The notes: a model not told the origin generated them from the letters alone. 47,413 bases of DNA from an uncultured Muribaculaceae bacterium (GCA_964546995.1 CAZJKO010000005.1:1-47413), one strand, 5' to 3'. Numbered from the stretch's first letter, positions 8,588-41,966 are shown. Numbers and translations: made by a program.

Positions 8588-8635
8588 TTATTTCACTTCT
8601 TTTTCCTTTTCGCGTATAGCGGCTTGTACCACTGC
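8588..8635 (-). repeat. Degenerate duplicate of the ppdK 3' end (att-like)
   Basis: Encodes AVVQAAIREKEKEVK* versus ppdK AAAQASIREKVNK*; 23/31 nt identity of 8605-8635 with 12479-12509, including exact CCTTTTCGCG. Confidence 0.7.
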
Positions 8636-8714
8636 TTTGTTTGGGAGGCAATTATATATAAATACAGCTTAGATAATGAATTATATTTTTCTACATCCAA
8701 ATAAATTATAACAT

Positions 8715-8738
8715 AAAAACCTAGTTATGAAAACTAGG
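8715..8738 (-). terminator. Terminator after the downstream RNA repeat
   Basis: CCTAGTT-TTCAT-AACTAGG followed by T5. Confidence 0.75.
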
Positions 8739-8743
8739 CATTG

Positions 8744-8781
8744 AATGACTTAGAGCTTCTAAAGTTTTCTAAGCACCACTC
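8744..8781 (-). ncRNA. Putative abiF-associated hairpin RNA, downstream copy
   Basis: 32/38 identical to 9698-9735 with two compensatory base-pair changes; TATAAT 6 nt upstream; terminator just downstream. Confidence 0.7.
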
Positions 8782-8809
8782 ATTAATATTATATTACAAA
8801 TGCTTAAAT

Positions 8810-9679
8810 TTATACATTAGGATAACCCATAATTCTTAAAATATTTTTAATATCTATAGAATTTAGCTTATTATCTAACTTTTTTATTTCTTTTTCTATT
8901 GCTTTTACTAAACTGTTATATTGCCTTTTATCTAAAATAATTTGCATTGCTCTAATCATCATGTATAGATTAGTAAGATTATCTTTTATTACATAATTAG
9001 TATCAATCTCTTTAAATTTTAAAGTATATTTATCTCTATAGCAAAATAAACGATCATTATGAGCACAAATATTTCTAACATTAGTAAGACACTTTAAAAT
9101 TTGTTTTAATAATGCATCTGATATTTTAAATTTTTTTGCTATTATTTGCCTATCGCTTTGCTTTAACAATCCATAATAGCTACTAATAACTCCAAATGTT
9201 AATATTTTAGTTAAAACGAATGGTGGAACAAAGCCATAATTATCTTTATAATGAGTAATTGCAAGATGAATACCATAATTATGATTAATGTCTTCATTTA
9301 TTTTATCAATCAATTTCTTTCTAACCACTAGGTTTACTTTATTATCTAGGTTATTAGCATTTAAATAAGCATCTATACCATAAATATTAGAAATATGATT
9401 TGACATTAATGATTTAATTAAAGATTCAACTTCTAAAGCATATTTTAACATTATTAATTTCAAGTTTTTATCAAATTCATATAAAGCATATATTTCTTCA
9501 AAAGAAACATTTGGAAGGTAATTATTATTAGAATCTTTAAAATTATATTTATAACTATTGATTATAGAATAATATGTATATTTTTCTAATTTTTTCAAAG
9601 CTGATTTCTTATTTTTAATAATTACATTTTTACATTCTAAGTATTTTAATAATTCTTCATTCGTTTTATATTGCTTCAT
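8810..9679 (-). CDS. Abi_2 (AbiD/AbiF) family HEPN protein
   Basis: KQYKT..E.L..L, YYSIINSYK, LYEFD..LK...L...L.VE..IK, HY.....PP, LTFG and HEPN RxxxxH motif RNICAH. Confidence 0.9.
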   Translation of the reverse strand: MKQYKTNEELLKYLECKNVIIKNKKSALKKLEKYTYYSIINSYKYNFKDSNNNYLPNVSFEEIYALYEFDKNLKLIMLKYALEVESLIKSLMSNHISNIYGIDAYLNANNLDNKVNLVVRKKLIDKINEDINHNYGIHLAITHYKDNYGFVPPFVLTKILTFGVISSYYGLLKQSDRQIIAKKFKISDALLKQILKCLTNVRNICAHNDRLFCYRDKYTLKFKEIDTNYVIKDNLTNLYMMIRAMQIILDKRQYNSLVKAIEKEIKKLDNKLNSIDIKNILRIMGYPNV

Positions 9680-9697
9680 ATTACCTCCTGAAATAAA

Positions 9698-9735
9698 AAT
9701 GACCTAGGGCTTCAAAAGTTTCCTAGGCACTACTC
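9698..9735 (-). ncRNA. Putative abiF-associated hairpin RNA, upstream (5' leader) copy
   Basis: GAGTAGTG-CCTAGG-AAACTTTTGAAGC-CCTAGG-TCATT between the promoter and the AGGAGG SD of the abi gene. Confidence 0.7.
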
Positions 9736-9742
9736 GATATAA

Positions 9743-9771
9743 ACTATACTAGATATTAATGGCTTTGTCAA
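9743..9771 (-). promoter_or_regulatory. Sigma-A promoter of the RNA-abi unit
   Basis: TTGACA (9766-9771)-17 bp-TATAGT (9743-9748). Confidence 0.8.
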
Positions 9772-9823
9772 TGATTTTTAAATGATTTCTCAATAATTCT
9801 TACTACTAATTGTACAAAGTATT

Positions 9824-10426
9824 TTATCTTTTAATTATATTATATTGTTCTTTTTTTTCTCTTTTATTTACTGCCATTTCAATATAATCATTAAAATTAT
9901 TTATAAATTCGTCCCATGATATCAATGAGCAATAATGATCCTGATTTCTGTCATACACTCCATTTTGAGGATTATGTTTATAAATTTTCTTTATATTAAA
10001 CATATTTTTTCTTACCAGATTATCAAAATCTTTTACAGTTACTGAACTTGAATTAGAAAAAGTATCTATTACTATAGGCTTGGCTTCTGGAGTATAAACA
10101 GCTATTAATCCATTACACCTATTATTCTCTCGATCATCTAATGAATATTTAATCTCGTCATACATCCAATCGTCATACACATAACTAAAACCATTATAAC
10201 TCTTTTTATGATTAATTGCTTCAGGTGTTAACAATACAATTGTAACACTAGTATATCTCAGTTTATCATATAAATATCCTTTTATTGTATCTTCAGACAT
10301 CATTGATCTATCTTCATTTTCAGAACAATTTATAACTGTTTCAGAATTAGAAAATAATTTACTTAAATAATCCTTATATTTATAACCGTCTTTATATCTA
10401 AAAGAAATAAAAATCCTTCTTGCCAT
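9824..10426 (-). CDS. TIR-domain protein, ThsB/DUF1863-like
   Basis: RRIFISFRYKD, TSVTIVLL and WMYDEI (catalytic Glu position); AGGAGG SD. Confidence 0.88.
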   Translation of the reverse strand: MARRIFISFRYKDGYKYKDYLSKLFSNSETVINCSENEDRSMMSEDTIKGYLYDKLRYTSVTIVLLTPEAINHKKSYNGFSYVYDDWMYDEIKYSLDDRENNRCNGLIAVYTPEAKPIVIDTFSNSSSVTVKDFDNLVRKNMFNIKKIYKHNPQNGVYDRNQDHYCSLISWDEFINNFNDYIEMAVNKREKKEQYNIIKR

Positions 10427-10435
10427 AACTACCTC

Positions 10436-10846
10436 CTATATCAAATAAACTGCTATGCTTGTTATTATACATGTTATATAAAATAAAATCTCAGTTAATG
10501 AAAACATGCACTTAAAAAACGAAATTTTAATTGTATCCTTCATTTCAATTTTTATGTTGTTATAATTCATATCAAAAACTTCGTTATCTTTACAACGTTT
10601 TAATTTTTCATTATAAAACAATCTATATTTTCTCTCCAATTGTAAATAATACGTATCTAAACACCAAAGTACAAATAAAGGGACAACTGTAAACAAAATA
10701 CATCTCTTATCACCTTGATTGCCAGCAAATGAAAAAATTGCTAGCATTACACCAATTCCCCAACCTTTAATCTGGAAAGAATTGTTTGCCATTCGATCAA
10801 TTATGTTCTGTATCATTTGCAAATAAGCTGCTTTATTATTTTCCAT
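10436..10846 (-). CDS. Small membrane protein (2-3 TM), candidate TIR-linked effector
   Basis: IQNIIDRMANNSFQIKGW followed by hydrophobic helices, LDTYYLQLERKYR and a C-terminal helix; 9 bp upstream of the TIR gene. Confidence 0.85.
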   Translation of the reverse strand: MENNKAAYLQMIQNIIDRMANNSFQIKGWGIGVMLAIFSFAGNQGDKRCILFTVVPLFVLWCLDTYYLQLERKYRLFYNEKLKRCKDNEVFDMNYNNIKIEMKDTIKISFFKCMFSLTEILFYITCIITSIAVYLI

Positions 10847-10871
10847 ATTGTACCTCCAATGTTAGTTTTAT

Positions 10872-10900
10872 ATTATATACGAAAAGAAAGTATTTTTCAA
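10872..10900 (-). promoter_or_regulatory. Sigma-A promoter of the TM-TIR operon
   Basis: TTGAAA-17 bp-TATAAT. Confidence 0.7.
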
Positions 10901-10918
10901 TAATTCTAAAGAAAAAAA

Positions 10919-11781
10919 TCACCTTTTTATTTTCATATAATATCCAAGGGCTTCGATAACGTACTTCTCAAGATACCGTTTATCTCTTTTTAATAATTCA
11001 GGTGGTAAAACTGCTTCTATTTTCTTTTTATTAAAAGTTATCTTATCATTTTGATTACCTTTCTTTTCATCTAATATTTTTTCTAGTGAATTAAAATCTA
11101 ATTTATGTTTTTGACTTAGATTTCTAATTCTTATCGCTTGAGCTCTATTAGGTGTTAAATCTTCATATTCTATAGAAGCAAAAAGCAATTTTTGCTCATC
11201 TTTGTTTAAATAAGATAATTCTACTGCTGTTGTTATGCCTAAAGTTAAATAAGTTTTTTTATCATGAATTACAGTATCATCAACAATCTTTAATAATTCA
11301 GGTATTAAATAAGTAAGCCTTATATATCTTCTAACTTGTTCTCTAGATTCTCCACTAACTTTAGCTATCAATTCAACAGAAGTTAACTTCTGCACATCTT
11401 GTGTAGAAGTGTCTTTTTTTTACCTTGGTGTTTAATCGCATCTAATTTCATTTTATAGGCATAAGCTTTTTCTGAAGGCAAAATTTTACTTCTATATATA
11501 TTGGAATCTACCATATAAATGATTGCTTCGTCATCATTTAATTCTTCTATATAGCAACCCGCCTCTTCTACTCCATTTAATTCAAGTGCTAGTTTTCTTC
11601 TATGACCTGATATCAGTTCAAACCTTCCGTTTTCTTTTCTTCTAACTACTAGTGGATTTAATAATCCATTTTCTCTAATACTTGATACAAGTTCATTTAA
11701 TGATTCATCCTTATTAACTTTAAATGGATGATTTTTAAAGGAATCAATATTGCATAATTTTACTTTTACTATTTCTTTCAT
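10919..11781 (-). pseudogene. parB: ParB/Spo0J-family gene split by a -1 frameshift (pseudogene or programmed frameshift)
   Basis: N-part has SIRENGLL.PLVVR and ISGHRR (ParB CTPase box); C-part has GESREQVRRYIRL HTH; the frames join at the A8 tract 11414-11421. Confidence 0.8.
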
Positions 11782-11785
11782 TATT

Positions 11786-12256
11786 TTACTCTCCTTTTAT
11801 TTGAAAAGTTAATTTCCATTCAATATACTCTTCATAACTTATTTCTCGATCTTCTCTTTTTTGTTTCTTTTGTTGCCATTCCTTTATGAAATTACTAATT
11901 AAAGCATCTGCTTTATTTTGAAGTTGTTCTGATGTTGCTAATTCAACATTCATTTTAGGATACAATTCTTCCAACCACATAAATATATAAACTATATCTA
12001 AAGGATTTTTAAAATCATATTTTCCAATAGAACTAGGATTAACTTTTAAAATATTAGCGATTTCAATTAGTCTATCTTCTTTTGGGTTTCTTTCTCCTTT
12101 CTCGTATCTTGTCATATTTACTCTCTTACTTTCTCCAGATAATCCCAATTTTTCTGAAACTTCGTCTTGAGTAAGCCTTCTAAATTGTCTTACAAAGGCA
12201 ATTCTTGATCCTTGTGTTAAATCTTTTAATTTTGGTTTTAGATAAAAATATCGCAT
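11786..12256 (-). CDS. XRE-family HTH regulator with C-terminal domain
   Basis: GSRIAFVRQFRRLTQDEVSEKLG..YEKGERNP; start reassigned to ATG 12256 behind AGGAGGTG. Confidence 0.85.
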   Translation of the reverse strand: MRYFYLKPKLKDLTQGSRIAFVRQFRRLTQDEVSEKLGLSGESKRVNMTRYEKGERNPKEDRLIEIANILKVNPSSIGKYDFKNPLDIVYIFMWLEELYPKMNVELATSEQLQNKADALISNFIKEWQQKKQKREDREISYEEYIEWKLTFQIKGE

Positions 12257-12302
12257 TTTTTCACCTCCTTTTTTATATCGCATAATTCTTATCTTTTCAC
12301 AC

Positions 12303-12333
12303 AAAAAAGACCAAGATGTTTATATCTTAGTCT
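12303..12333 (-). terminator. Intrinsic terminator
   Basis: AGACTAAGAT-ATAAAC-ATCTTGGTCT followed by T tract. Confidence 0.75.
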
Positions 12334-12467
12334 AATTTATATATAAATATCAATTGTGATAGGTTCTTTTAACCTTGCATTTTTACATTCAGGTATTTTA
12401 TCTGAATATCTTAAAATATCATCTTTTGTAATGATTATGCGGGTTAAAAACAATTCATAATAACTTT

Positions 12468-15101
12468 CTATTTGTTTACCTTTTCGCGGATACTTGCTTG
12501 TGCAGCAGCAAGTGATGCGATTGGTACACGATATGGAGAACAAGATACATAAGTTAGTCCTACTTTATGGCAGAAATTGACTGTTTTGGGATCAGCACCA
12601 TGTTCTCCGCAAATACCCATATGCATATTTGGCTTTACTTTTCTTCCTAACGTTACTGCCAGTGCTACTAATTTTCCTGTACCTTTTTGGTCCAATCTTT
12701 GAAATGGATCGCTTTCGAAGATGTGGTTATTATAGTAATCATTTAAGAACTTTCCAGCATCATCTCTTGAAAAACCATATGTTAGTTGTGTTAAATCGTT
12801 GGTTCCAAACGAGAAGAAATCGGCATATTCAGCAATTTCATCCGCTACGAGTGCTGCCCTTGGCACTTCGATCATCGTTCCAATATGATAATTGATTCTT
12901 CTTTCTTTTTCGGTCATAACCTTTTCTGCTTCTTCCCCGATAATCTTTTTAATAAAGAGCAGTTCTTCTTTATCTCCTATTAATGGGATCATCAGTTCTG
13001 GTACAATATCAATATGGTTTTCTTCGCTTACTTCGATAGCAGCTTCTAGTATAGCCCTCGTTTGCATTTTAGCAATTGATGGATACGTAATCGCTAAGCG
13101 ACAACCACGATGCCCCATCATCGGATTAAATTCTTTTAGCGAATCAATTCGCGATACCAATGCTTCATAAGTCATGTTTAATGCTGTTGCTAAGTGACGA
13201 ATTTCGTCCATCTGTTTTGGGAGAAATTCATGAAGTGGCGGATCTAAATAACGAATGGTTATCGTTTTGTCGCTCATGACTTGAAACATTCCTTTGAAAT
13301 CCTCTTTTTGATAAGGTAACAGTTTGGCTAAGGCTCTATTTCGTTGTTCGTTCGTTTCCGCTGTGATCATCTCACGCATGGCAAAGAGGCGTTCTTTTTC
13401 AAAAAACATGTGTTCTGTTCGACATAAACCGATCCCTTCTGCCCCTAGTTCCAACGCTATTTTGGCATCTTTGGGACTATCGGCATTGGCTCTTACCCCT
13501 AAGGTGCGAGCTTCTTTGGCCCATTCCATAAACGTTTCGAAATCTCCACTTATACGGGCTTCTTTCGTTTCGATTTTTTCTCCATATATTAGACCTGTAG
13601 AGCCATCTAACGATAGATCATCTCCTTCATGGAACGTTTGTCCATCTTTGGTTGTCAAGGTTTTCTTTTGCTCATCGATTTCTAAATCGCTACAGCTACA
13701 GATACAACACGTTCCCATTCCTCTTGCGACGACAGCAGCATGGGAGGTCATTCCTCCACGAATCGTCAATATTCCATTGGCGACATTCATTCCTTCAATA
13801 TCTTCTGGTGAAGTTTCAAGACGTATCAACAGCGTATCTTCTATTCCGTTTCGTTTAGCCTTTATAACGTCTTCCTTTGTAAAATAGATCTTTCCTGTGG
13901 CAGCACCAGGCGACGCCGCTAATCCTTTCGCAATGACTTTGCCATTTTTTAACGATTCCTGATCGAACATAGGATGTAAAAGGCTATCTAACTGTTTTGG
14001 TTCTACTCTAAGAAGTGCTTCCTCTTTTCCAATCATTCCTTCTTTCACTTGATCGACCGCAATTTTTACTGCTGCATTTCCGGTTCGTTTGCCATTTCTT
14101 GTTTGTAGGATAAATAGTTTCCCTTCTTCAATTGTGAATTCCATATCTTGCATGTCTTTGTAGTGATTTTCTAAAAGTTGGGCAATGTTTTCAAATTCTT
14201 TATATATGGTTGGCATCTTTTCCTTCAACGTTGTTATGGCTTCAGGGGTTCTAATGCCTGCGACGACATCTTCGCCTTGGGCATTGATCAAGTATTCTCC
14301 AAATAGGGCTTTTTCTCCTGTAATGGGATTTCTAGTAAAGGCTACCCCTGTACCTGAATGTTCTCCTTTGTTTCCATAGACCATTTCCTGGATATTTACA
14401 GCAGTTCCCCAATTAGATGGAATGTCGTTTAGTTTGCGATATGTTACAGCACGTTCATTGTTCCACGAACGAAATACGGCTTTGATTGCTTCTAATAGTT
14501 GTACTTTGGCATCTTGAGGAAAATTTTCTTTGGCAATTTCGAAATATGCTTGTTTGTAACGTTCCGTTACCTCTTTCATATCATTACTTGTCAATTCAAT
14601 ATCTAACGCTTTTCCTTTTTCTTTTTTGATCTCATCTAACAAACGTTCAAACGTCGATTTGGGAAAACCCATGACAACATCGGCATACATTCCGATGAGG
14701 CGGCGATACGAATCGTAGACAAATCTTGGGTCGTGCGTTGTTTCGATCAAGCCGTCTACGACTTCATCGTTCATCCCAAGATTTAGAATGGTATCCATCA
14801 TTCCTGGCATCGAAGCTCTCGAACCACTTCGAACAGAGACTAAAAGAGGATTGTTTTTATCTCCCATCGTTTTCGCCGTTTCTTGTTCTAATCTTTCTAA
14901 TTCTTTTAAAATTTCTAATTCTATGTCACGATTGATTACACCATGATCTTCATAATACTTTAAACATGCGTCCGTCGAGACGGTAAACCCCCTTGGGACA
15001 GGTAGACCGATGTTGGTCATTTCTGCCAGATTGGCCCCTTTTCCACCGAGCACTTCTCTCATCTCTTTGTTTCCTTCATGAAACGAGTATACGTATTTCA
15101 T
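12468..15101 (-). CDS. ppdK: Pyruvate, phosphate dikinase
   Basis: LGGKGANLAEM, GGMTSHAAVVARG (phospho-His), GIGLCRTEHMF, FFSFGTNDLTQ. Confidence 0.98.
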   Translation of the reverse strand: MKYVYSFHEGNKEMREVLGGKGANLAEMTNIGLPVPRGFTVSTDACLKYYEDHGVINRDIELEILKELERLEQETAKTMGDKNNPLLVSVRSGSRASMPGMMDTILNLGMNDEVVDGLIETTHDPRFVYDSYRRLIGMYADVVMGFPKSTFERLLDEIKKEKGKALDIELTSNDMKEVTERYKQAYFEIAKENFPQDAKVQLLEAIKAVFRSWNNERAVTYRKLNDIPSNWGTAVNIQEMVYGNKGEHSGTGVAFTRNPITGEKALFGEYLINAQGEDVVAGIRTPEAITTLKEKMPTIYKEFENIAQLLENHYKDMQDMEFTIEEGKLFILQTRNGKRTGNAAVKIAVDQVKEGMIGKEEALLRVEPKQLDSLLHPMFDQESLKNGKVIAKGLAASPGAATGKIYFTKEDVIKAKRNGIEDTLLIRLETSPEDIEGMNVANGILTIRGGMTSHAAVVARGMGTCCICSCSDLEIDEQKKTLTTKDGQTFHEGDDLSLDGSTGLIYGEKIETKEARISGDFETFMEWAKEARTLGVRANADSPKDAKIALELGAEGIGLCRTEHMFFEKERLFAMREMITAETNEQRNRALAKLLPYQKEDFKGMFQVMSDKTITIRYLDPPLHEFLPKQMDEIRHLATALNMTYEALVSRIDSLKEFNPMMGHRGCRLAITYPSIAKMQTRAILEAAIEVSEENHIDIVPELMIPLIGDKEELLFIKKIIGEEAEKVMTEKERRINYHIGTMIEVPRAALVADEIAEYADFFSFGTNDLTQLTYGFSRDDAGKFLNDYYNNHIFESDPFQRLDQKGTGKLVALAVTLGRKVKPNMHMGICGEHGADPKTVNFCHKVGLTYVSCSPYRVPIASLAAAQASIREKVNK

Positions 15102-25326: not shown

Positions 25327-26271
25327 TTATCTTAACGCTTCTATTAATTCTTCTTTTTTCATTTTAGAATAGCCTTTGATTCCCTTTTCTTTGGCCATTT
25401 CTTTTAATTCTTGTAATGAAGGAGCCTTTTCCTCTTTTTTTGGTTCTTCTTTCACTTCTTCTTTTGCAGGTTCCTTTTGTTCTTCTTTGCTGTTTTCTTC
25501 TTTTTCAACTCTGATTTCTTTTCCGTCTTCCCGTTTTCCTTTTTTCTCACTCTTTGTTTTATCTTCTTCTGTCAAGAAATCTAATACTTCATTTCCGTTT
25601 ACTTCGGCAATGGCATTCGTTAAAACACCAATGATTAGTTTTACCGAACGAACGGCATCATCATTTCCGGGAATCACATAGTCGACCATATCCGGATCGC
25701 AGTTCGTATCGACAATTCCAAATACGGGAATTCCTAAAATACGTGCTTCTTTAATCGCAATTTCTTCTTTTCGTGGATCGACAATGATTAGTGCTTCTGG
25801 TACTTTCTTCATATCACGGATACCACGTAAGTTTTTGTTTAATTTATCGTATTCTTTACGAATACCAATTACTTCTTTTTTTGGTAATAGTTCGAATGTT
25901 CCATTCTTTTCCATTTCTTCGATTTCAATCATACGTTTTACACGTGATTTAATCGTTTTGAAGTTGGTTAATGTTCCACCTAACCATCTTTCGTTTACGA
26001 AATACATATTGGTGCGCGTTGCTGATTCTTCACTTGCTTCTTGAGCTTGTTTTTTGGTACCTACAAATAAGAATTTACCACCATTTTCAGCGATTTCCTT
26101 GATTTTTGCATATGCCTCTTCAATTTTCTTCGCTGTTTTTTGTAAATCGATAATATAAATATCATCTCTCGTCGTATAGATGTACTCCTTCATCTTTGGA
26201 TTCCATCTTCTTTTTTGGTGTCCAAAATGAACACCTGCTTCTAATAAATAATTCATTGACACAACTGCCAT
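25327..26271 (-). CDS. rpsB: 30S ribosomal protein S2 with charged linker and Rho_N-like C-terminal extension
   Basis: [26 protein letters not shown]; tail [28 protein letters not shown]. Confidence 0.97.
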
Positions 26272-26367: not shown

Positions 26368-26913
26368 TTATTTTAAAGCAGCAAGTAAGTCTGCTTTTTT
26401 CATGGTTCCTGTTCCTTCGATGCCTTTTTCTTTTGCAAGACTACGAAGTTCTGCAACAGTCATTTTACTAAGATCTTGTTCTTCTTTTTGGGTTTCCTTT
26501 TTTGGTTCTTTTTTCACTTCTTTTTTTGGTTCTTTGACTTCTTGTTTCGTGATTTTTCCAGCTTTCCCATCGCGAGCTACTTTGACAAGTTCTTTAAAGC
26601 TTGCAGGATCGTTGATTGCAATTTCACTCAACATTTTACGATTTACTTCTACTCCTGCTTTGTTTAAACCTTCGATAAATCTTGAATAACTGATTTCATT
26701 TTCACGGCACGCTGCATTAATACGTGTAATCCATAACTTTCTGAAATCTCTTTTCTTTTGTTTTCTATCACGGAATGCATATTGTCCAGAATGCATTAAT
26801 TGTTCTTTTGCTGTTTTATATAGACGGTGTTTGCTTCCGAAATATCCTTTTGCTTCCTTTAATACTTTTTTATGACGAGCTTTCGTCGTCACTCCATTTT
26901 TTACTCTTGCCAT
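26368..26913 (-). CDS. rplT: 50S ribosomal protein L20 with Rho_N-like C-terminal extension
   Basis: [23 protein letters not shown]; tail [34 protein letters not shown]. Confidence 0.97.
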
Positions 26914-32965: not shown

Positions 32966-33577
32966 CTATAATACTAATACGATCATTCCTGCCACAACTA
33001 GTATCGATAAAATATTTAAAAACCATTCTTTGTGAAACAAGCTTGGACATATGGAGCCAATTTTATCGAGACACTTGTATATTGAAAAGCCCAATAAACC
33101 TCCGATAATATTTAGCAAAATGTCATCGACATCGAACACTCGTCCAATCGCTAGTTGGGTACATTCTATGGCAATCGATGCCATTAGAATTAAGAAAAAG
33201 GGAGTGGTATATTTTTCTAGTTTTACATAATACCCTATAAAAAATCCATAAGGAAAGAAAAGAAGCATATTGCCTAAGACATTTTTAAAAAATAAACGGC
33301 TACCAATATGATACCTCATAATTTCTTTAAAGGGAATAAAATTATTTGACGCATAACTTGTTACATCTTGGAATGTGACGACTTGGAATAAACAAAGAAT
33401 ATAAATGATAAACGCTAACATCAATAGTTCTTTATAAAAGACGACATGTTCTTTTTGTTTATATAGATAGGTAACTCGCAACGATACGATAATAATGATG
33501 GAAATAAAAAGCATGGGCCAAGTAAATTCCATGACGCCATGAATTGTTTTTGTCAAAGGGGAAAGCAAATGCATCAC
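32966..33577 (-). CDS. VanZ-family membrane protein
   Basis: NFIPF, GNMLLFFPYG, IECTQ, GRVFDVDDILLN. Confidence 0.9.
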   Translation of the reverse strand: MMHLLSPLTKTIHGVMEFTWPMLFISIIIIVSLRVTYLYKQKEHVVFYKELLMLAFIIYILCLFQVVTFQDVTSYASNNFIPFKEIMRYHIGSRLFFKNVLGNMLLFFPYGFFIGYYVKLEKYTTPFFLILMASIAIECTQLAIGRVFDVDDILLNIIGGLLGFSIYKCLDKIGSICPSLFHKEWFLNILSILVVAGMIVLVL

Positions 33578-34737
33578 TCCTGTTCTTCGGTTTCTACTAA
33601 AGGTATTTCTATATGATCTGTGATATCCTCCGATACTTTAAAAAATACATCTACTATTATTTTACTCTCTTTTTCGACAATTTTCAAAGTTTTTTGAAAA
33701 ATTATTTCATCTCTTTCCCCTAATATTTTTTTTAATTTTTCACTTGCTAAAGTAGTTGCTTTTATAACGGCTTCTTCTTTGGTATAGATTTCGTCGATGA
33801 CGGACAATTCTTTTTGGTTACTGTATTCGATTGCGATTGGTAATAAGGGGTTTTTGGCAATGGTTATGACGGTTTCTCGTTTATGCTTAAAGGGAGTTAA
33901 ATCAAATAGAGAAAAAGTACGGTTTAAAAACCTAAATTGAATTTTCTTTTTGGTTTTACCTGTTAGGCTTTCTTCTTTATAGTGAAGAGGCATTTCTATT
34001 GTCGATTGATACCACGTTTCGGCATAGACGGTTCCTTCTGCTCTTATTTTAGCCATTTCTTGATCTTGATTTTTGATAATTCCTGTGATAATGATATCTC
34101 CTTTTTTTACGTAATCATTTTTCTTTTTGACGATTTCTCCCGATGTAGCATCGATTTTTAAAATCATGCCATCTTTTTTGGCAATCACATTTTGAGCGGT
34201 TTCTTCTTGATGATACTCTTTTATTTTGCGTTCTTCTACTTTGACCATGTACTTTGTCCCTACTCGTTCTATTTCCAACCATTCAATTGTATCTTTATGT
34301 TTTTCTAGAATTTTTTGGACAATTCTTTCTTGTTTTTCAAATGAAACTTGGAGATGTAATTTTTTTATGCCTTCGTTTTCTAGTTCTTCTAAGATAAGAG
34401 AACGGATTTCTTTTTTGGAATGGACGACTTCGATATCGAAGGTTAGATGCGATAAGAATAATAATACAAAAAGACCTACTCCTAATACGATAAGAAAGAG
34501 AGCATTCATTTTGAGTTGATACATCCATTTTAGAAAGCCCGTTCTTTTTAGAATGGTTATTTGATAAGTCGTTTTGATTTTTTTTATTTTGCGATACGTT
34601 TCTTCATCTACTTTGACCAATAGTTCCTTGTCTTTGATATCGATTTTGTAGAGGGGAAGATGAAGTTTATAGAGAACTTTTAGGAAACGTCGGGGATCTT
34701 TACCAGTAATTTTTAATTCGTATAATCCTTTGTTCAC
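33574..34737 (-). CDS. yqfD: Sporulation protein YqfD
   Basis: Single TM, IAKKDGMI, VKKGDIIITG, RAEGTVYAETWY; follows yqfC. Confidence 0.88.
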   Translation of the reverse strand: MNKGLYELKITGKDPRRFLKVLYKLHLPLYKIDIKDKELLVKVDEETYRKIKKIKTTYQITILKRTGFLKWMYQLKMNALFLIVLGVGLFVLLFLSHLTFDIEVVHSKKEIRSLILEELENEGIKKLHLQVSFEKQERIVQKILEKHKDTIEWLEIERVGTKYMVKVEERKIKEYHQEETAQNVIAKKDGMILKIDATSGEIVKKKNDYVKKGDIIITGIIKNQDQEMAKIRAEGTVYAETWYQSTIEMPLHYKEESLTGKTKKKIQFRFLNRTFSLFDLTPFKHKRETVITIAKNPLLPIAIEYSNQKELSVIDEIYTKEEAVIKATTLASEKLKKILGERDEIIFQKTLKIVEKESKIIVDVFFKVSEDITDHIEIPLVETEEQE

Positions 34738-36449: not shown

Positions 36450-36899
36450 CTACTCTCCTTTCCCGAAATCGCGAATGATTTCTAAGATTGTTTTTGTTTT
36501 TCCTTCTAACCAAAATTCGAAGACTAAGTTTTCTAATTTCGTATTTTTATATGTCGGTATTTTTAAAATAACCTTTTTGTAAAATTGGGTTCCTTCCGAA
36601 ATAATTTCTTTCTCTATTCTTTCTACTTCGTAACGATACCTTCTTCCGTTTATCTTTAATTTGGTCAATTCATCAAACCACTTTAAATCTCGTACTGGTA
36701 TGACAACCATAATTTCCTCATTTTTTAAAATGAGTCCTTCATACTTCGTACTTTTTATTAAATGCCTCGATGTAACCATCAACACTATCAATCCTGTCAA
36801 CAATATATAACTGATAAGGGTTTTAGCAAGGGGAAGTGGCTTTTCTCCTTGAATTTTCCTCTTGTAGTTTTTTACTGATGTATACGTGATCATGGACAA
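36450..36899 (-). CDS. Single-TM accessory protein, possibly a reduced membrane-fusion (HlyD-like) export partner
   Basis: One TM helix, beta-rich domain, ends ..KTKTILEII as in bacteriocin secretion accessory proteins; overlaps the transporter stop. Confidence 0.65.
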   Translation of the reverse strand: MSMITYTSVKNYKRKIQGEKPLPLAKTLISYILLTGLIVLMVTSRHLIKSTKYEGLILKNEEIMVVIPVRDLKWFDELTKLKINGRRYRYEVERIEKEIISEGTQFYKKVILKIPTYKNTKLENLVFEFWLEGKTKTILEIIRDFGKGE

Positions 36900-38976
36900 T
36901 TCTTCCCTTCTCTAATTTTATTTTTTTCGTAAAGAGATCTTGATTGTGAAACCGATGAGAAATCACAATAATCGTTTTTCCTTTTAAATAAGTAAATATA
37001 TTTTTTAAAATGAGTCGTTCCATGGTGACATCTAGTTCATTTAAACTTTCATCAAAAATATAAATATCGCTTTCTTTTAAAAGGGCTCTTGCTAAAATGA
37101 TTCTCTGTCGTTCCCCACCACTTAAATTGTTCCCGTTTTCTTCTATTTCTTTCTCGTAGAGAACGGTTGAATTTTTTACGATCGCATCGACTTTCATTAA
37201 TTGACATACGTTTAAAAATTCATCGTACGAAATCTCACGATCTAGGGTTATGTTTTGATAGACAGTTCCCGTAAATAAGCCTTCTTTTTGAGATACATAA
37301 GTGATGCGATCTCTAATATTTTCTAAATGATATAGATTCACATCGCGTTTTCCAATCCAGATTTGATTTGGTTTTACAGGATAGTAACGTAACAGCAATT
37401 TCACAAGCGTACTTTTCCCACTTCCCGATTCTCCGTATAACAACAGTCTTATCCCTTTTGGTATTTTTAAGTTGATATCTTTTAAGCATGGTTCTATGTC
37501 ATTATGGGAAAATTGTAAATGTGAAATTTCAATATCTTCATTTAATGAAAGATGCTGGTACTGGTAGTTAAGGGAAAAGTTTTCGCGTTTTATTTGAAAG
37601 AATTCATCTAGTCTTTTGACCGTTACCTTAAATGAGGAAACATCAAATAGTAATAATGCGATATTTTCGATCGCTATAAATAGATACGAATAAATACTTT
37701 GAAGAGTGATCAATTTTCCTATGGTCATTTTCTTTTCCAAACATAAGTGAGCGCCTAGACATAGGATTACAATTTCACTCCATTTTTTTAGTGTACTTGT
37801 CCAAAAAAATCGTCTTGTTTGAACGTGATGGATATTTTTTTGTTTTATCTTGAGGTCTTCTAATTTTTCTTGAAAATCATCCATCTTTTTTTCCTCTAGA
37901 TGTAGATGTTTAATGCTAGCTAGATAGGTTAACGATTCTGTTAAGAAAGAAGAAAACACTCCCTCTTCGATTCGCTCGCGGGTGATTTCTTTTTCTTCTG
38001 TTTTTTTAAATAGCAATACTACCATGATAAAGATACTAAGAAAGAACAGGAAAAAGAAAAGAAATATCGGAGATAATACACCGATGATGAAGCTTGATGC
38101 AATAAGTAAAGGAACATCCATAAAAAGAACGTTACCTAACTTTAGTAAAAAGGATCCTACGATGGAGGCATCTTGTAGTCTCGCGACAACTTCTCCTGTC
38201 GTTTTGTTCTTATAGAAGGAAAACGGAAGTAAGACAATTTGTTGATACACTTTTTCCATTAATTTGTTATTTATTTTTTGAGCGAAAGGAAAGACAAGGC
38301 GATTTTTTAACGATTGGCTACGATGATAAAAAAGAGTCAATATAAGGAAAGTACATCCTATCGATATTAGATTTTCTCTACTTTCACCAACGATTCCCCA
38401 TTCTAACATGATTTTGAAGAAAAACGATAAGACAATACCGATTCCAGTTATGATTATCGAAAGGCCTAATAAGGTTCCCAAGGTACGCCATTCTTCTTTT
38501 ATGATAGCACTAAGATAAGGTAATAAATAGGGTTCTTCTAGATAATAAGGAAGGGGTTTTACGGGTTTAAAACAAAGATAGCGATCTGTTTTTATCTTCT
38601 CAAAATCACTATTCGGCATTCGGATTAGTCCTCTGGCAGGATCGGCTACTATGAGATATTTCTTTCGTTTATTTATTTCGTGAATAACGACAAAGTGTGT
38701 CCTTCGTTCCTTTGTAATCACATGGGCAATACAAGGAAGTGTGTCATTTGTCAATTCTTCATAAGGACCTTTTATTCCTTTTCCTTCTAAACCTATTTTT
38801 GAAGCTACTTGTATTAGGGCGTAGGCTGTGGTTCCTTCTTTCGTCACAGAAACCCATTCTTTTAATTTTGAATTTGGAATGTTTCCTTTATAACTTTTAA
38901 TGATGGTTGCAAGGGAAGCGATACCACAGTCTTTTTTTTCATCTTGTCTTACACATGGAAATTTGTGTATCAACAT
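36823..38976 (-). CDS. Peptidase C39-containing ABC transporter (PCAT, SunT/ComA-like)
   Basis: Q....DCG, HFVV and ADP catalytic motifs; TM domain; GESGSGKST, LSGGERQR, FDE, SHR. Confidence 0.95.
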   Translation of the reverse strand: MLIHKFPCVRQDEKKDCGIASLATIIKSYKGNIPNSKLKEWVSVTKEGTTAYALIQVASKIGLEGKGIKGPYEELTNDTLPCIAHVITKERRTHFVVIHEINKRKKYLIVADPARGLIRMPNSDFEKIKTDRYLCFKPVKPLPYYLEEPYLLPYLSAIIKEEWRTLGTLLGLSIIITGIGIVLSFFFKIMLEWGIVGESRENLISIGCTFLILTLFYHRSQSLKNRLVFPFAQKINNKLMEKVYQQIVLLPFSFYKNKTTGEVVARLQDASIVGSFLLKLGNVLFMDVPLLIASSFIIGVLSPIFLFFFLFFLSIFIMVVLLFKKTEEKEITRERIEEGVFSSFLTESLTYLASIKHLHLEEKKMDDFQEKLEDLKIKQKNIHHVQTRRFFWTSTLKKWSEIVILCLGAHLCLEKKMTIGKLITLQSIYSYLFIAIENIALLLFDVSSFKVTVKRLDEFFQIKRENFSLNYQYQHLSLNEDIEISHLQFSHNDIEPCLKDINLKIPKGIRLLLYGESGSGKSTLVKLLLRYYPVKPNQIWIGKRDVNLYHLENIRDRITYVSQKEGLFTGTVYQNITLDREISYDEFLNVCQLMKVDAIVKNSTVLYEKEIEENGNNLSGGERQRIILARALLKESDIYIFDESLNELDVTMERLILKNIFTYLKGKTIIVISHRFHNQDLFTKKIKLEKGRIVHDHVYISKKLQEENSRRKATSPC

Positions 38977-40040: not shown

Positions 40041-40997
40041 CTATTTTTGAGGAAATAATAATTCATTCATTTCTGATAGTATCTCTTCTCCATTTACTTT
40101 TAGCACTAAACGATCGACATCATAATTATCAAATACCGAATAAGAGATGGTATATACGACTTCCTCTAATACTTGGTTTTCTTTAGTAAAAATGGCATCA
40201 TTAAAGTTTAGAACCATTTCGTTATCTTCTATTCGATAATCCAACAGTTTGGTATCTTGATTTAAGAAACTCATCAAATTGGGTTCATAGATATAATTCG
40301 TTGTTAAATTATCGATAATGATTCGTATTTTATCTCGTGAATCATTTACATATTTCGTTACAGGTACGTAGTATGTATTCTCTTGTTCTTCTTCTAAATA
40401 ATAGATTGTTACTTTACTAATTCCATTCCTATTATTCAAGTCATACACTTTATTAATTCCTAATTCTTTGGTCAAAGGAAAGGGTAAGTTTTTTTTCGTT
40501 TTTGGTAGTGTTCTTAGTGCTTCTTTTTCAATGGTTAGTTGTAATCCTTTGACGCCTTTTAATTCTAAAATACTATAAGTAAGTGCTTCGACAGCAGTTT
40601 CTTCTAATTCTTTGTCTATTTCAAAAAAGGCTTTCGAAAGATCGAGGGTAACGATTCCTTCATCATAATTGACATTTAGAACCGTTAAATTTTGGGGTAA
40701 GAAACTTCTAAGCGAAGATGGCATTTTACTATTCTTTCCTTCTTTTAACGTTTCTACTAATTGTTTTACTTTTTCTTCTATTTTGTCACTATCTAAGAGA
40801 ATTTTTGTTTTTACAAGAAATCCTCGATTATTTAATAGATAAATATTATCGGTTCCTAACCCTGTGATATATTCTAGTTCTAACGAGGTATTTAGTTCTT
40901 TTTCTTTTTCTTTAACAGGAATCAAATAAATCACCAATAAAATACATACTGTTACTGTCGTAATGAACATTTTCCGTAATGCTTTTTTTCTTAACAC
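40041..40997 (-). CDS. gerM: GerM-like protein (two GerMN domains)
   Basis: N-terminal TM, VTLDLS..F, ALTYSILEL.GV..LQL.I, YYVPVT, LNFN, V.LKVNGE. Confidence 0.85.
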   Translation of the reverse strand: MLRKKALRKMFITTVTVCILLVIYLIPVKEKEKELNTSLELEYITGLGTDNIYLLNNRGFLVKTKILLDSDKIEEKVKQLVETLKEGKNSKMPSSLRSFLPQNLTVLNVNYDEGIVTLDLSKAFFEIDKELEETAVEALTYSILELKGVKGLQLTIEKEALRTLPKTKKNLPFPLTKELGINKVYDLNNRNGISKVTIYYLEEEQENTYYVPVTKYVNDSRDKIRIIIDNLTTNYIYEPNLMSFLNQDTKLLDYRIEDNEMVLNFNDAIFTKENQVLEEVVYTISYSVFDNYDVDRLVLKVNGEEILSEMNELLFPQK

Positions 40998-41348: not shown

Positions 41349-41882
41349 TTACTTTTCAAAACGGACAGTAATGTACATTTTTTCTGTAAACTCTTCTTGA
41401 ACCGTTCTCATGATATTATTTGCTAAAGAATTGTTGTGTTCTTTGGATGAGATGACGACTTTTACTTGATTGTTTTCTACTTTTACAAAACTATCAAGGG
41501 CATAAGTTTTTTTAATTTTGGATTCTAGTTTTTCTTCTGTTCCTTGTAGTTGTGTTAAATACCTTAATTGTTCATAGGCGTTATTCTTTTCTTCTGATCC
41601 AGTTTCTTGATCGGTCAATGTTTTTTGCAATTCTTCGCGCATGGTAAGACGTTCTTCTTCTAGACTTACTCTCATTGCCGTTAAGGTTTCACTTTCTCTA
41701 ATGGTCACTTGGGCATTGTTTTCTACTTCCTTTTCGACCGATTGTTCCTTCTTTTTTTCTTTGTTTTGATAAACGTTATTGTTTGTTAGCAATAATTCGT
41801 TTGGCATAGTAATGTAATATACACTCAACACTAATATTAAACTGAACAAGGTTAAAAACCACAAACTTTGTTTATTGATCAC
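41349..41882 (-). CDS. spoIIIAH: Stage III sporulation protein AH
   Basis: KQSLWFLTLFSLILVLSVYYITMP N-terminus, R..LEEER, EKNNAY; GTG start at 41882. Confidence 0.85.
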   Translation of the reverse strand: MINKQSLWFLTLFSLILVLSVYYITMPNELLLTNNNVYQNKEKKKEQSVEKEVENNAQVTIRESETLTAMRVSLEEERLTMREELQKTLTDQETGSEEKNNAYEQLRYLTQLQGTEEKLESKIKKTYALDSFVKVENNQVKVVISSKEHNNSLANNIMRTVQEEFTEKMYITVRFEK

Positions 41883-41903
41883 TTTATCCCTCTTTTCTAA
41901 TAT

Positions 41904-41930
41904 ACTATATGGGCAAAATGATACAATTAT
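41904..41930 (-). promoter_or_regulatory. Candidate sigma-E promoter of spoIIIAH
   Basis: ATA-16 bp-CATATAGT. Confidence 0.45.
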
Positions 41931-41966
41931 CACAAATAATTGATGAAAAAGAAAAAAAGCATAATA

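What the first reader, a model, noticed from the sequence alone, without database searches (positions are those of the whole stretch)
9824..10900. Two-gene TM + TIR operon: Thoeris-like system lacking a recognisable ThsA
Seen: own sigma-A promoter, a 136-aa 2-3 TM protein and, 9 bp later, a ThsB-like TIR protein with the catalytic Glu, inside a defence island next to an Abi gene. Established: Thoeris TIRs make NAD-derived signals for SIR2-SLOG, TM-Macro or caspase-like effectors. No such domain is encoded here. Inference: the small membrane protein (IDRMANNSF..KGW / LD.YYL.LER.YR) is a pore-forming effector gated by a TIR product or by direct TIR binding.
Basis: partly seen in the sequence, partly recalled or inferred. 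Interest (0 to 1): 0.72.

Follow-up and report, generated by a model that had tools for sequence, protein, structure and literature searches.

The report
Thoeris-type TIR plus small membrane effector
The two genes are a real anti-phage alarm pair, a TIR signalling enzyme and a small three-helix membrane protein, but the pairing is widespread, already catalogued, and closely resembles the recently described type V Thoeris.

Summary
On the minus strand a near-consensus promoter (10900..10872) precedes a 136-aa membrane protein (10846..10436) and, 9 bp later, a 200-aa ThsB-type TIR (10426..9824) with the conserved Glu (E91). The pair lies beside AbiD in a 3.9-kb low-GC island. No SIR2, SLOG (STALD model) or Macro gene was found in the window or the 96%-complete genome.

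The pair is not new. The membrane protein matches PADLOC candidate PDC-M50A (E 6e-38). Its family is large (5373 representative clusters). It lies next to TIR genes in 26 of 32 fetched genomes from many phyla, on plasmids, and occurs fused to SLOG or TIR. The TIR's nearest plasmid relatives (48-54% identity) are type I Thoeris ThsB.

A December 2025 preprint (Yirmiya et al.) validated "type V Thoeris": ThsB plus ThsF, a three-helix "DUF2270" membrane effector triggered by 3'cADPR. This family is a probable distant relative of DUF2270 (hhalign 78%, P 1.7e-5, same hairpin core). It fails the Pfam cut-off, and I could not see the ThsF sequences.

Best reading (0.7): the TIR makes a cADPR-type signal that opens an oligomeric membrane effector, aborting infection. 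Verdict: new member of a known kind, low-to-moderate interest. Earlier notes of this scan reached the same reading on other genomes.

The parts
10872..10900 (-). Promoter of the pair: TTGAAA, 17-nt spacer, TATAAT (11 of 12 consensus positions), about 25 nt upstream of the membrane-protein start
   Evidence: scan; sequence read, GGAGG ribosome-binding site follows
10436..10846 (-). Gene for the 136-aa three-helix membrane protein (PADLOC PDC-M50A family; DUF2270-like / ThsF-like candidate effector)
   Evidence: PDLC04686 E 6.2e-38; 5373 representative clusters at E<=0.001; pLDDT 89.7; hhalign to DUF2270, 78.4%
9824..10426 (-). Gene for the 200-aa ThsB-type TIR protein with conserved Glu E91; starts 9 bp after the stop of the membrane-protein gene, with its own AGGAGG site
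   Evidence: PF08937 E 5.8e-7; ThsB1 PDLC00438 E 1.3e-75; 48-54% identical to ThsB next to SIR2/ThsA
8810..9679 (-). Context, not part of the pair: AbiD/Abi_2 abortive-infection gene with its own promoter-like site (TTGACA-17-TATAGT at 9771..9743)
   Evidence: no AbiD was seen beside the pair among the adjacent ORFs examined in related loci
8591..12501 (.). Context: the low-GC island that carries the pair, bounded by an imperfect direct repeat (8591-8627 and 12465-12501). The right copy is the 3' end of ppdK. Besides the pair and AbiD it holds a split ParB-like gene and an HTH regulator.
   Evidence: (GC 24.9% against about 40% in the flanking genes)

Best explanation
This is a two-gene Thoeris-type abortive-infection system of the kind catalogued as PADLOC candidate PDC-M50 and most probably equivalent, or closely related, to type V Thoeris (ThsB + ThsF). 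Shown here: the genes, their promoter, the TIR identity with its conserved Glu, the membrane topology, the conserved pairing across phyla, and the fusions. Inferred: on phage infection the ThsB TIR converts NAD+ into a cyclic ADP-ribose isomer. This is probably 3'cADPR, because its closest relatives are type I ThsB proteins. The signal binds the cytoplasmic face of the small membrane protein. There the N-terminal helix (R18, N22-S23-F24, K27) and the helix that continues from TM2 (D64, Y66-Y67, E71-R72-K73, R75) carry nearly all the conserved, mostly basic residues. The protein, assembled as a homo-oligomeric ring, then breaches or depolarises the membrane, stopping the cell before phage progeny are released.
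For: (1) PADLOC: the membrane protein hits all four PDC-M50A models (best E 6.2e-38). The TIR hits ThsB1 PDLC00438 at 1.3e-75 and PDC-M50B weakly at 5.2e-5. (2) Adjacency: of 32 genome loci fetched with the family motif, 26 have a TIR-type gene directly beside the membrane gene on the same strand. Of these, 23 have solid ThsB_TIR, TIR_2 or PADLOC ThsB hits, 2 have DUF4062 only, and 1 has a weak TIR_2 hit. Gaps run from -13 to +10 bp in many loci. The hosts span Bacillota, Bacteroidota, Chloroflexota, a Cyanobacteria relative and archaea. A further 5 of 5 inspected cases agree (L033, L046 and plasmids H1, H17, H8). (3) The TIR partners belong to many different ThsB models (PDLC00438, 00433, 00431, 00430, 00425, 00423, 00420), as expected of an interchangeable effector module. 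(4) Fusions: SLOG(LD_cluster2/STALD)+membrane module (P0056) and TIR+membrane module (P0057). SLOG is the signal-sensing domain of ThsA (established knowledge). (5) The TIR's nearest plasmid relatives (48-54% identity) sit beside SIR2/ThsA genes, which is type I Thoeris. (6) Preprint 10.64898/2025.12.03.692087 (sections 5 and 6 read): a TIR cluster shared with type I also pairs with a three-helix 'DUF2270' effector, ThsF. That pair protects against phage, its TIR makes 3'cADPR, and added 3'cADPR is toxic in one of the two type V systems tested this way. (7) Relation to DUF2270: hhalign of 157 family members against 42 true DUF2270 proteins gave probability 78.4%, P 1.7e-5, over 62 columns covering TM1, TM2 and the ERKYR motif. 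The reversed and 20 column-shuffled controls gave a best P of 0.027. Family members reach 22.7 and 17.3 bits on PF10028, whose cut-off is 25. AlphaFold2 models of both families share a core of long helix, 6-residue loop, long helix, short helices, then a TM helix. (8) Low GC, patchy distribution (1 of 40 relatives) and the AbiD neighbour fit a mobile defence island.
Against: The window's own protein has no PF10028 hit even at E<=1. Among 149 close representatives only 4 hit PF10028 at E<=0.01 (best 0.0017), fewer than hit DUF3278 (31) or 8xMP (7). A first profile comparison with a narrow DUF2270 alignment was not significant (probability 4.8%). True DUF2270 proteins are about 230 aa with a fourth TM helix, and the two inspected in Bacteroidota were not next to TIR genes. 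I could not see the ThsF sequences or Tables S1-S3 of the preprint because the supplements are closed, so identity with ThsF is unproven. Six of 32 loci lack a TIR neighbour: two pair the membrane gene with a radical SAM + SspA/DndA-like fusion, three Anaerolineae loci have none, and one copy is truncated. In the preprint, 3'cADPR did not trigger the second type V system tested, so the signal assignment is uncertain even within the family. No experiment bears on this locus.
Confidence: 0.7

Rival explanations
1. Direct coupling without a diffusible signal. The TIR docks on the membrane protein, or is held at the membrane by it. TIR oligomerisation on infection then opens the pore or locally destroys NAD+.
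For: A natural TIR+membrane-module fusion exists (P0057). In four Porphyromonas loci the partner is a ~1000-aa LRR-Roc-COR-TIR protein of STAND-like architecture. The tight 9-bp spacing, or overlapping genes in relatives, allows co-translational assembly.
Against: The same membrane module pairs with at least seven different ThsB model groups. That is easier with a shared small molecule than with a co-evolved interface. The SLOG+membrane fusion (P0056) points to ligand gating. In the preprint, added 3'cADPR alone was toxic to cells carrying one type V system.
Confidence: 0.12
2. Reversed roles. The TIR is an NAD+-depleting executioner, and the small membrane protein is a sensor or regulator, for example of envelope perturbation during phage entry or lysis.
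For: Many bacterial TIRs are NADase effectors (established knowledge; also listed in section 5 of the preprint). The membrane family also accompanies non-TIR enzymes (radical SAM + SspA/DndA-like fusion in L006 and L010) and stands alone in three Anaerolineae genomes. This would suit a general sensor or adaptor.
Against: The TIR is 48-54% identical to ThsB proteins of type I Thoeris, which are signal producers (function from the literature). In the SLOG fusion the membrane module occupies the effector position. The conserved residues lie on helices assigned to the cytoplasmic side by the positive-inside rule (the side is inferred), not on the 6-residue outer loop.
Confidence: 0.08
3. The pair is not a defence system. 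It would be a toxin-antitoxin-like or otherwise selfish addiction cassette of the island, or an unrelated membrane function that merely travels with TIR genes.
For: The family is common on conjugative plasmids (134 plasmid records; 82 conjugative). In one E. coli plasmid it sits beside a RelE/ParE toxin-antitoxin pair. No experiment exists for this locus.
Against: It is embedded beside AbiD here and beside restriction, methylase and other defence genes elsewhere. PADLOC lists it as a defence candidate found by embedding in defence systems (passages of 10.1101/2024.01.29.577857). A TIR paired with a three-helix DUF2270-annotated effector (ThsF) protected against phages in the preprint, but identity of this family with ThsF is unproven.
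Confidence: 0.05

Closest known systems
Type V Thoeris (ThsB + ThsF, 'DUF2270' effector), Yirmiya et al., bioRxiv 10.64898/2025.12.03.692087 (Dec 2025; outline, sections 5, 6, 8, 9, 14, 20, 29, 30 and passages read)
   Same: Both are two-gene operons of a ThsB TIR and a small effector with three predicted membrane helices and no enzymatic domain. In both, the TIR belongs to the clade that also serves type I Thoeris. The frequency is about 1% of genomes: 4 of 401 in a Bacillales-order sample here against 1.2% in the paper. The paper reports type V as especially enriched in Bacteroidota, and many of the loci fetched here come from that phylum. The family is distantly related to DUF2270 by profile comparison (78.4%).
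   Different: The window's protein does not reach the Pfam PF10028 cut-off, and neither do its close relatives. It is 136 aa against about 230 aa and four helices in canonical DUF2270. The signal molecule and oligomeric state are untested here.
PADLOC phage defence candidate PDC-M50 (PADLOC-DB v2.0.0; PDC systems introduced in bioRxiv 10.1101/2024.01.29.577857, passages read)
   Same: The membrane protein matches all four PDC-M50A models (best E 6.2e-38). The candidate's second component, PDC-M50B, is a ThsB-like TIR.
   Different: The window's TIR matches PDC-M50B only weakly (E 5.2e-5) and belongs to another ThsB model (PDLC00438). PDC systems are untested predictions, and a search for 'PDC-M50' found no paper that names it.
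Type VII Thoeris (ThsB + ThsH, SLATT effector) and SLATT effectors of CBASS
   Same: A TIR or cyclase signal is coupled to a small oligomerising membrane effector. The fusion of the present module to a SLOG domain echoes the 'SLOG-associating' definition of SLATT (definition recalled, not from a call).
   Different: No SLATT Pfam model was hit by any of 23 members at E<=10 or any of 149 members at E<=0.01.
Type I and type II Thoeris (ThsA = SIR2-SLOG; ThsC = TM-Macro)
   Same: The TIR is 48-54% identical to ThsB proteins that sit beside SIR2/ThsA on Enterococcus, Lactococcus and Bacillus plasmids.
   Different: No SIR2, SLOG (STALD model) or Macro domain was found in the window or the genome. 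The effector is a bare membrane protein.

Membership tests
Thoeris (any type) | ThsB-type TIR protein with the conserved active-site Glu | tested here: met
   PF08937 E 5.8e-7 over the cut-off; PADLOC ThsB1 E 1.3e-75. E91 aligns with the Glu of 9vyl_A and is invariant in 15 of 15 partners.
Thoeris (any type) | An effector gene conserved in the same operon as the TIR gene | tested here: met
   26 of 32 loci plus 5 of 5 further cases have TIR and membrane gene adjacent on one strand.
Thoeris (any type) | Infection-dependent NAD-derived signal, and phage protection | not testable with these tools
   Needs plaque assays and LC-MS.
Type V Thoeris (ThsB + ThsF) | Effector with three membrane-spanning helices and no other domain | tested here: met
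   Hydropathy and the AlphaFold2 model; no Pfam domain.
Type V Thoeris (ThsB + ThsF) | Effector matches Pfam PF10028 (DUF2270) over the curated cut-off | tested here: not met
   The window's protein has no hit at E<=1. The best relatives reach 22.7 and 17.3 bits against a cut-off of 25. Only 4 of 149 representatives hit at E<=0.01. How the preprint assigned the Pfam label to its cluster is not stated in the sections I read.
Type V Thoeris (ThsB + ThsF) | Remote homology of the effector to DUF2270 | tested here: inconclusive
   hhalign 78.4%, P 1.7e-5, 62 columns with diverse profiles; controls P>=0.027. Only 4.8% with a narrow DUF2270 profile. The predicted helix layouts are similar.
Type V Thoeris (ThsB + ThsF) | TIR from the clade shared with type I ThsB | tested here: met
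   Top plasmid relatives at 48-54% identity sit next to SIR2/ThsA.
Type V Thoeris (ThsB + ThsF) | Homo-heptameric channel-like assembly; activation by 3'cADPR | not testable with these tools
   At most four copies can be folded here, and no small-molecule assay is available.
PADLOC PDC-M50 | PDC-M50A and PDC-M50B model hits in adjacent genes | tested here: inconclusive
   The A component is clearly met (E 6.2e-38). The B component is only weak (E 5.2e-5, 21.5 bits), while ThsB1 scores 251.9 bits. PADLOC's own thresholds and system rule were not run.
SLATT effectors (type VII Thoeris, CBASS) | Match to a Pfam SLATT model | tested here: not met
   No SLATT family among the hits of 23 members at E<=10 or of 149 members at E<=0.01.
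Type I / type II Thoeris | ThsA with SIR2-SLOG, or a TM-Macro effector | tested here: not met
   None in the window's scanned ORFs. The own genome, 95.9% complete, has no ThsA1, SIR2_2, STALD or Macro hit. The STALD control rang nowhere, so that one absence is weak.

The most novel reading that the evidence does not exclude
The PDC-M50A family is not ThsF. It would be a separate, experimentally untouched and very large class (5373 representative clusters) of minimal membrane effectors. These would read a TIR product, or dock the TIR itself, through a pocket built only from an N-terminal amphipathic helix and the D-x-YYLQLERKYR helix, with no classical nucleotide-binding domain. The same module would be re-used by non-TIR partners (radical SAM + SspA/DndA-like fusions) and by LRR-Roc-COR-TIR giants. 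That would make it a general 'kill switch' cassette of several signalling immunities.
Probability: 0.2. Interest if true: 0.55.

Novelty: new member of a known kind. Interest (0 to 1): 0.3.

Why it matters
As an instance it adds little. It shows that a 1.07-Mb, uncultured gut-type Bacilli genome spends part of a 3.9-kb insert on a Thoeris pair plus AbiD. It also gives a clean example of effector swapping on a type I-like ThsB. The family-level facts gathered here are more useful. The module is very abundant. It is common on conjugative Klebsiella and Escherichia plasmids. It occurs fused to SLOG, TIR and DinB-like domains. Its conserved basic residues mark a testable ligand-binding site. If the family proves distinct from ThsF, it would be one of the largest untested Thoeris effector classes.

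Tried and rejected
(1) Homo-oligomer prediction of the membrane protein (4 copies, alignment A3): no verdict, score 0.18 against a mark of 0.42. It is used neither for nor against oligomerisation.

(2) Foldseek of the monomer model against the PDB found no match at E<=0.001 (best 0.64). VIA-align wide search gave a best Z of 9.3 among generic helical hairpins (ESCRT-III, designed bundles, channel fragments). This is below the level that means anything for long helices.

(3) ESM Atlas: the 30 nearest clusters are all unnamed. The nearest named cluster is 8xMP at 0.85, a lead only. A paper search for '8xMP' found nothing relevant.

(4) NCBIfam has no model for either protein.

(5) Direct search for true DUF2270 next to TIR genes, in order to obtain ThsF-like sequences. 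PF10028 was over the cut-off in 0 of 299 genomes of the window's phylum sample and in 2 of 401 Bacteroidota; the ORFs around those two matches show no TIR gene. It was over the cut-off in 0 of 401 genomes of a Bacillales-order sample and in 34 of 301 genomes of the phylum around Methanimicrococcus, whose neighbours were not inspected.

(6) SLATT identity was rejected because no Pfam hits were found.

(7) Paper searches: 'PDC-M50' gave 0 papers. 'type V Thoeris / ThsF / DUF2270' gave only the Yirmiya preprint as a relevant hit. 'ThsB + transmembrane effector + TIR' gave two 2026 reviews, seen in the listing only.

(8) AbiD, the ParB-like genes and the HTH gene were considered as parts of the system and rejected. 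AbiD and ParB-like genes were not seen among the adjacent ORFs examined in related loci. An XRE-type HTH gene sits upstream in 4 of the 32 loci (L003, L005, L007, L019). AbiD has its own promoter-like site.

Full report
**What is there**

The finding's coordinates hold two intact minus-strand genes. One runs 10846..10436 and encodes 136 aa. The other runs 10426..9824 and encodes 200 aa. Nine bases separate them. A near-consensus sigma-70-type site, TTGAAA-17-TATAAT (11 of 12), lies at 10900..10872, and GGAGG sites precede both starts. Promoter-like sites are not enriched in this AT-rich region overall (38 against 31.8 +/- 5.5 in shuffles). Only this site's quality and position speak for it.

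The downstream gene, 8810..9679, is AbiD/Abi_2 (E 4.7e-44 in Pfam, 4.6e-53 in PADLOC) and has its own promoter-like site at 9771..9743. Upstream lie a ParB-like gene in two overlapping ORFs and an HTH regulator.

The block from AbiD to the HTH gene has 24.9% GC, against about 40% in the flanking pfkB-type kinase and ppdK genes. It is bounded by an imperfect direct repeat, 8591-8627 and 12465-12501 (37 nt, 76%). The right copy is the 3' end of ppdK. This looks like a small foreign island inserted at the end of ppdK. The rest of the window is housekeeping.

**The TIR**

The TIR matches Pfam ThsB_TIR over the cut-off (E 5.8e-7) and PADLOC ThsB1 model PDLC00438 at E 1.3e-75. The only solved relative found by sequence is 9vyl_A, 'putative cyclic ADP-D-ribose synthase TIR1' (E 2.1e-11). 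The Glu in DDWMYDEIKYSL (E91) aligns with a Glu there. In an alignment of 15 TIR partners of this membrane family, F6, S8 and E91 are the only invariant columns. That this is the catalytic Glu rests on general TIR knowledge.

Its closest plasmid-borne relatives are 48-54% identical and come from Enterococcus, Lactococcus and Bacillus mycoides. They sit beside genes annotated SIR2 family or ThsA, which is type I Thoeris.

**The membrane protein**

It has no Pfam or NCBIfam family. It hits all four PADLOC PDC-M50A models, best E 6.2e-38. A profile of 23 relatives finds 5373 representative clusters at E<=0.001 and 3797 at E<=1e-10 among 1.84 billion representatives.

The AlphaFold2 model is confident (pLDDT 89.7, pTM 0.81). 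It shows a 40-residue helix (2-41), a 6-residue loop, a 36-residue helix (48-83), two short helices and a last helix (117-135). Hydropathy marks 49-67 and 113-136 strongly and 29-43 weakly.

With the positive-inside rule, the N-terminal half of helix 1 and the C-terminal half of helix 2 face the cytoplasm. This is an inference. They carry nearly all the conserved residues: R18, N22, S23, F24, K27, W29, and W61, D64, Y66, Y67, E71, R72, K73, R75, Y78.

**Does the pair recur?**

Yes. A scan of one genome per species with the motif YYLQLERK returned 32 loci from Bacilli, Clostridia, Bacteroidota, Chloroflexota, a Cyanobacteria relative and two archaea. I took the nearest same-strand ORF on each side and scanned these against Pfam and PADLOC. 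The result by locus:

- **TIR-type neighbour: 26 of 32 loci.** Of these, 23 have solid ThsB_TIR, TIR_2 or PADLOC ThsB hits. They include four ~1000-aa LRR-Roc-COR-TIR proteins in Porphyromonas and six ~262-aa ThsB1 PDLC00430 proteins. Two loci have DUF4062 only (L005, L007). One has a weak TIR_2 hit (L009).
- **No TIR neighbour: 6 of 32 loci.** Two carry a radical SAM + SspA/DndA-like fusion (L006, L010). Three are Anaerolineae loci without a partner (L011, L015, L018; the last has two tandem copies). One copy is truncated (L017).

This sample is biased towards members that keep the exact motif.

Five further cases all show the pairing. They are a genome of the same class (L033), the single positive among 40 relatives (L046, with two TIR genes), and plasmids of Priestia, Escherichia and Klebsiella.

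tblastn found the family on 134 plasmid records: Klebsiella 42, Escherichia 36, Campylobacter 10. Of these, 82 are conjugative, and every listed hit that lies under an annotated gene is annotated 'hypothetical protein'.

Longer relatives include SLOG(LD_cluster2/STALD)+module, TIR+module and DinB_2+module fusions.

In the window's own genome (1.07 Mb, 95.9% complete) there is one TIR gene and one module gene. There is no ThsA1, SIR2_2, STALD or Macro hit. The STALD control rang nowhere, so that absence is weak.

**What is known**

PADLOC's PDC entries are 145 untested 'phage defence candidates' derived by guilt-by-embedding (passages of 10.1101/2024.01.29.577857). A search for 'PDC-M50' found no paper that names it.

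The decisive comparison is the preprint by Yirmiya et al. (10.64898/2025.12.03.692087). I read its outline, sections 5, 6, 8, 9, 14, 20, 29 and 30, and passages. Its main points:

- It predicts 29 Thoeris configurations and validates seven new ones.
- Type V is ThsB plus ThsF, 'annotated as PF10028, DUF2270'. ThsF has three predicted membrane helices and is modelled as a homo-heptameric channel with basic inter-protomer pockets.
- Its TIRs come from a cluster shared with type I and type IV.
- The TIR makes 3'cADPR on infection. Added 3'cADPR is toxic for one of the two type V systems tested this way.
- Type V is found in 1.2% of genomes, especially in Bacteroidota.
- Type VII uses a SLATT effector.

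**Is this family ThsF?**

I could not see the ThsF sequences, so I tested the link to DUF2270 indirectly.

Against the link:
- The window's protein has no PF10028 hit.
- Only 4 of 149 close representatives hit PF10028 at E<=0.01.
- A comparison with 24 closely related DUF2270 proteins was not significant (probability 4.8%).
- Canonical DUF2270 is about 230 aa with a fourth helix.

For the link:
- Two family members reach 22.7 and 17.3 bits on PF10028, cut-off 25, over model positions 22-83.
- I built a diverse DUF2270 profile from 12 Bacteroidota-type and 30 haloarchaeal proteins. hhalign against 157 family members gave probability 78.4%, P 1.7e-5, over 62 columns spanning TM1, loop, TM2 and the ERKYR/RRYR motif.
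- The reversed template, the reversed query and 20 column shuffles scored at most 20.5 against 40.3, with a best P of 0.027.
- The two AlphaFold2 models share the core of long helix, 6-residue loop and long helix.
- In one 401-genome Bacillales-order sample the family occurs in 4 genomes (1.0%), while PF10028 finds nothing real. The preprint's tested type V systems come from Bacillus.

I read this as probable but unproven equivalence, about three in four.

**Mechanism**

Shown: the anatomy, the pairing, the fusions and the clade of the TIR.

Inferred: the TIR senses infection and makes a cADPR isomer, most likely 3'cADPR. The basic cytoplasmic face of an oligomer of the membrane protein binds it. 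The assembly then breaches or depolarises the membrane.

The rival of direct TIR docking keeps some weight because of the TIR fusion and the LRR-Roc-COR-TIR partners. Three things count against it: the module's promiscuity towards at least seven ThsB model groups, the SLOG fusion, and the published toxicity of added 3'cADPR.

**Dead ends**

The four-copy complex job gave no verdict. Fold searches gave only generic helical matches.

**Verdict**

The functional reading is plausible. The novelty claim is not sustained. This is a new member of a known kind. Five earlier notes of this scan on other genomes reached the same reading. They are not independent evidence.

Noticed in passing
window 8591-8627 and 12465-12501 (island 8628-12464): An imperfect direct repeat (37 nt, 76%; weaker similarity over about 65 nt) brackets the 24.9%-GC island. 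The right copy is the 3' end of ppdK and the left copy looks like a decayed duplicate. This suggests site-specific insertion at the end of ppdK. No integrase gene lies inside the island.
   Followed up: partly
window 10919-11395 and 11383-11781 (minus strand): A ParB/Noc-like gene appears split into two overlapping ORFs: ParB_N (E 1.5e-15; NCBIfam parB_part 2.9e-19) and a weak ParB HTH part (E 0.037). It may be a frameshifted gene or two genes. An XRE-type HTH gene (11786-12304) lies upstream.
   Followed up: no
protein P0055 (metagenomic); compare window 12337-12543: A 331-aa ORF joins the first ~108 residues of this membrane family to a C-terminal part of pyruvate phosphate dikinase. Its tail resembles the small ORF just past ppdK in the window. 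It is either a rearrangement at the same ppdK site in a relative or an assembly chimera.
   Followed up: no
L006 1327-2586; L010 6458-8608; P0056; P0059; L023, L024, L026, L027: The membrane module also keeps other company. Partners include a radical SAM + SspA/DndA-like cysteine desulfurase fusion (weak pVip hits) and ~1000-aa LRR-Roc-COR-TIR proteins in Porphyromonas. The module also occurs fused to a SLOG domain and to a DinB_2 domain.
   Followed up: partly
window 26368-26913 and 25327-26271 (minus strand): Ribosomal proteins L20 and S2 both carry a C-terminal Rho_N/SAP-like tail (E 3.6e-10 and 1.5e-9). This is an unusual extension for these proteins.
   Followed up: no
window about 9691-9729 (minus strand): A CCTAGG...CCTAGG hairpin followed by a T-run lies between the AbiD promoter-like site and the AbiD ribosome-binding site. 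It could end read-through from the TIR gene or attenuate AbiD. The terminator scan did not list it, perhaps because the loop is long.
   Followed up: no
window 33574-34737, 40041-40997, 41349-41933; genome G000: Sporulation-type genes (YqfD, Germane-domain protein, SpoIIIAH-like) are present in a genome of only 1.07 Mb. A C39-peptidase ABC exporter (36823-38976) suggests bacteriocin export.
   Followed up: no
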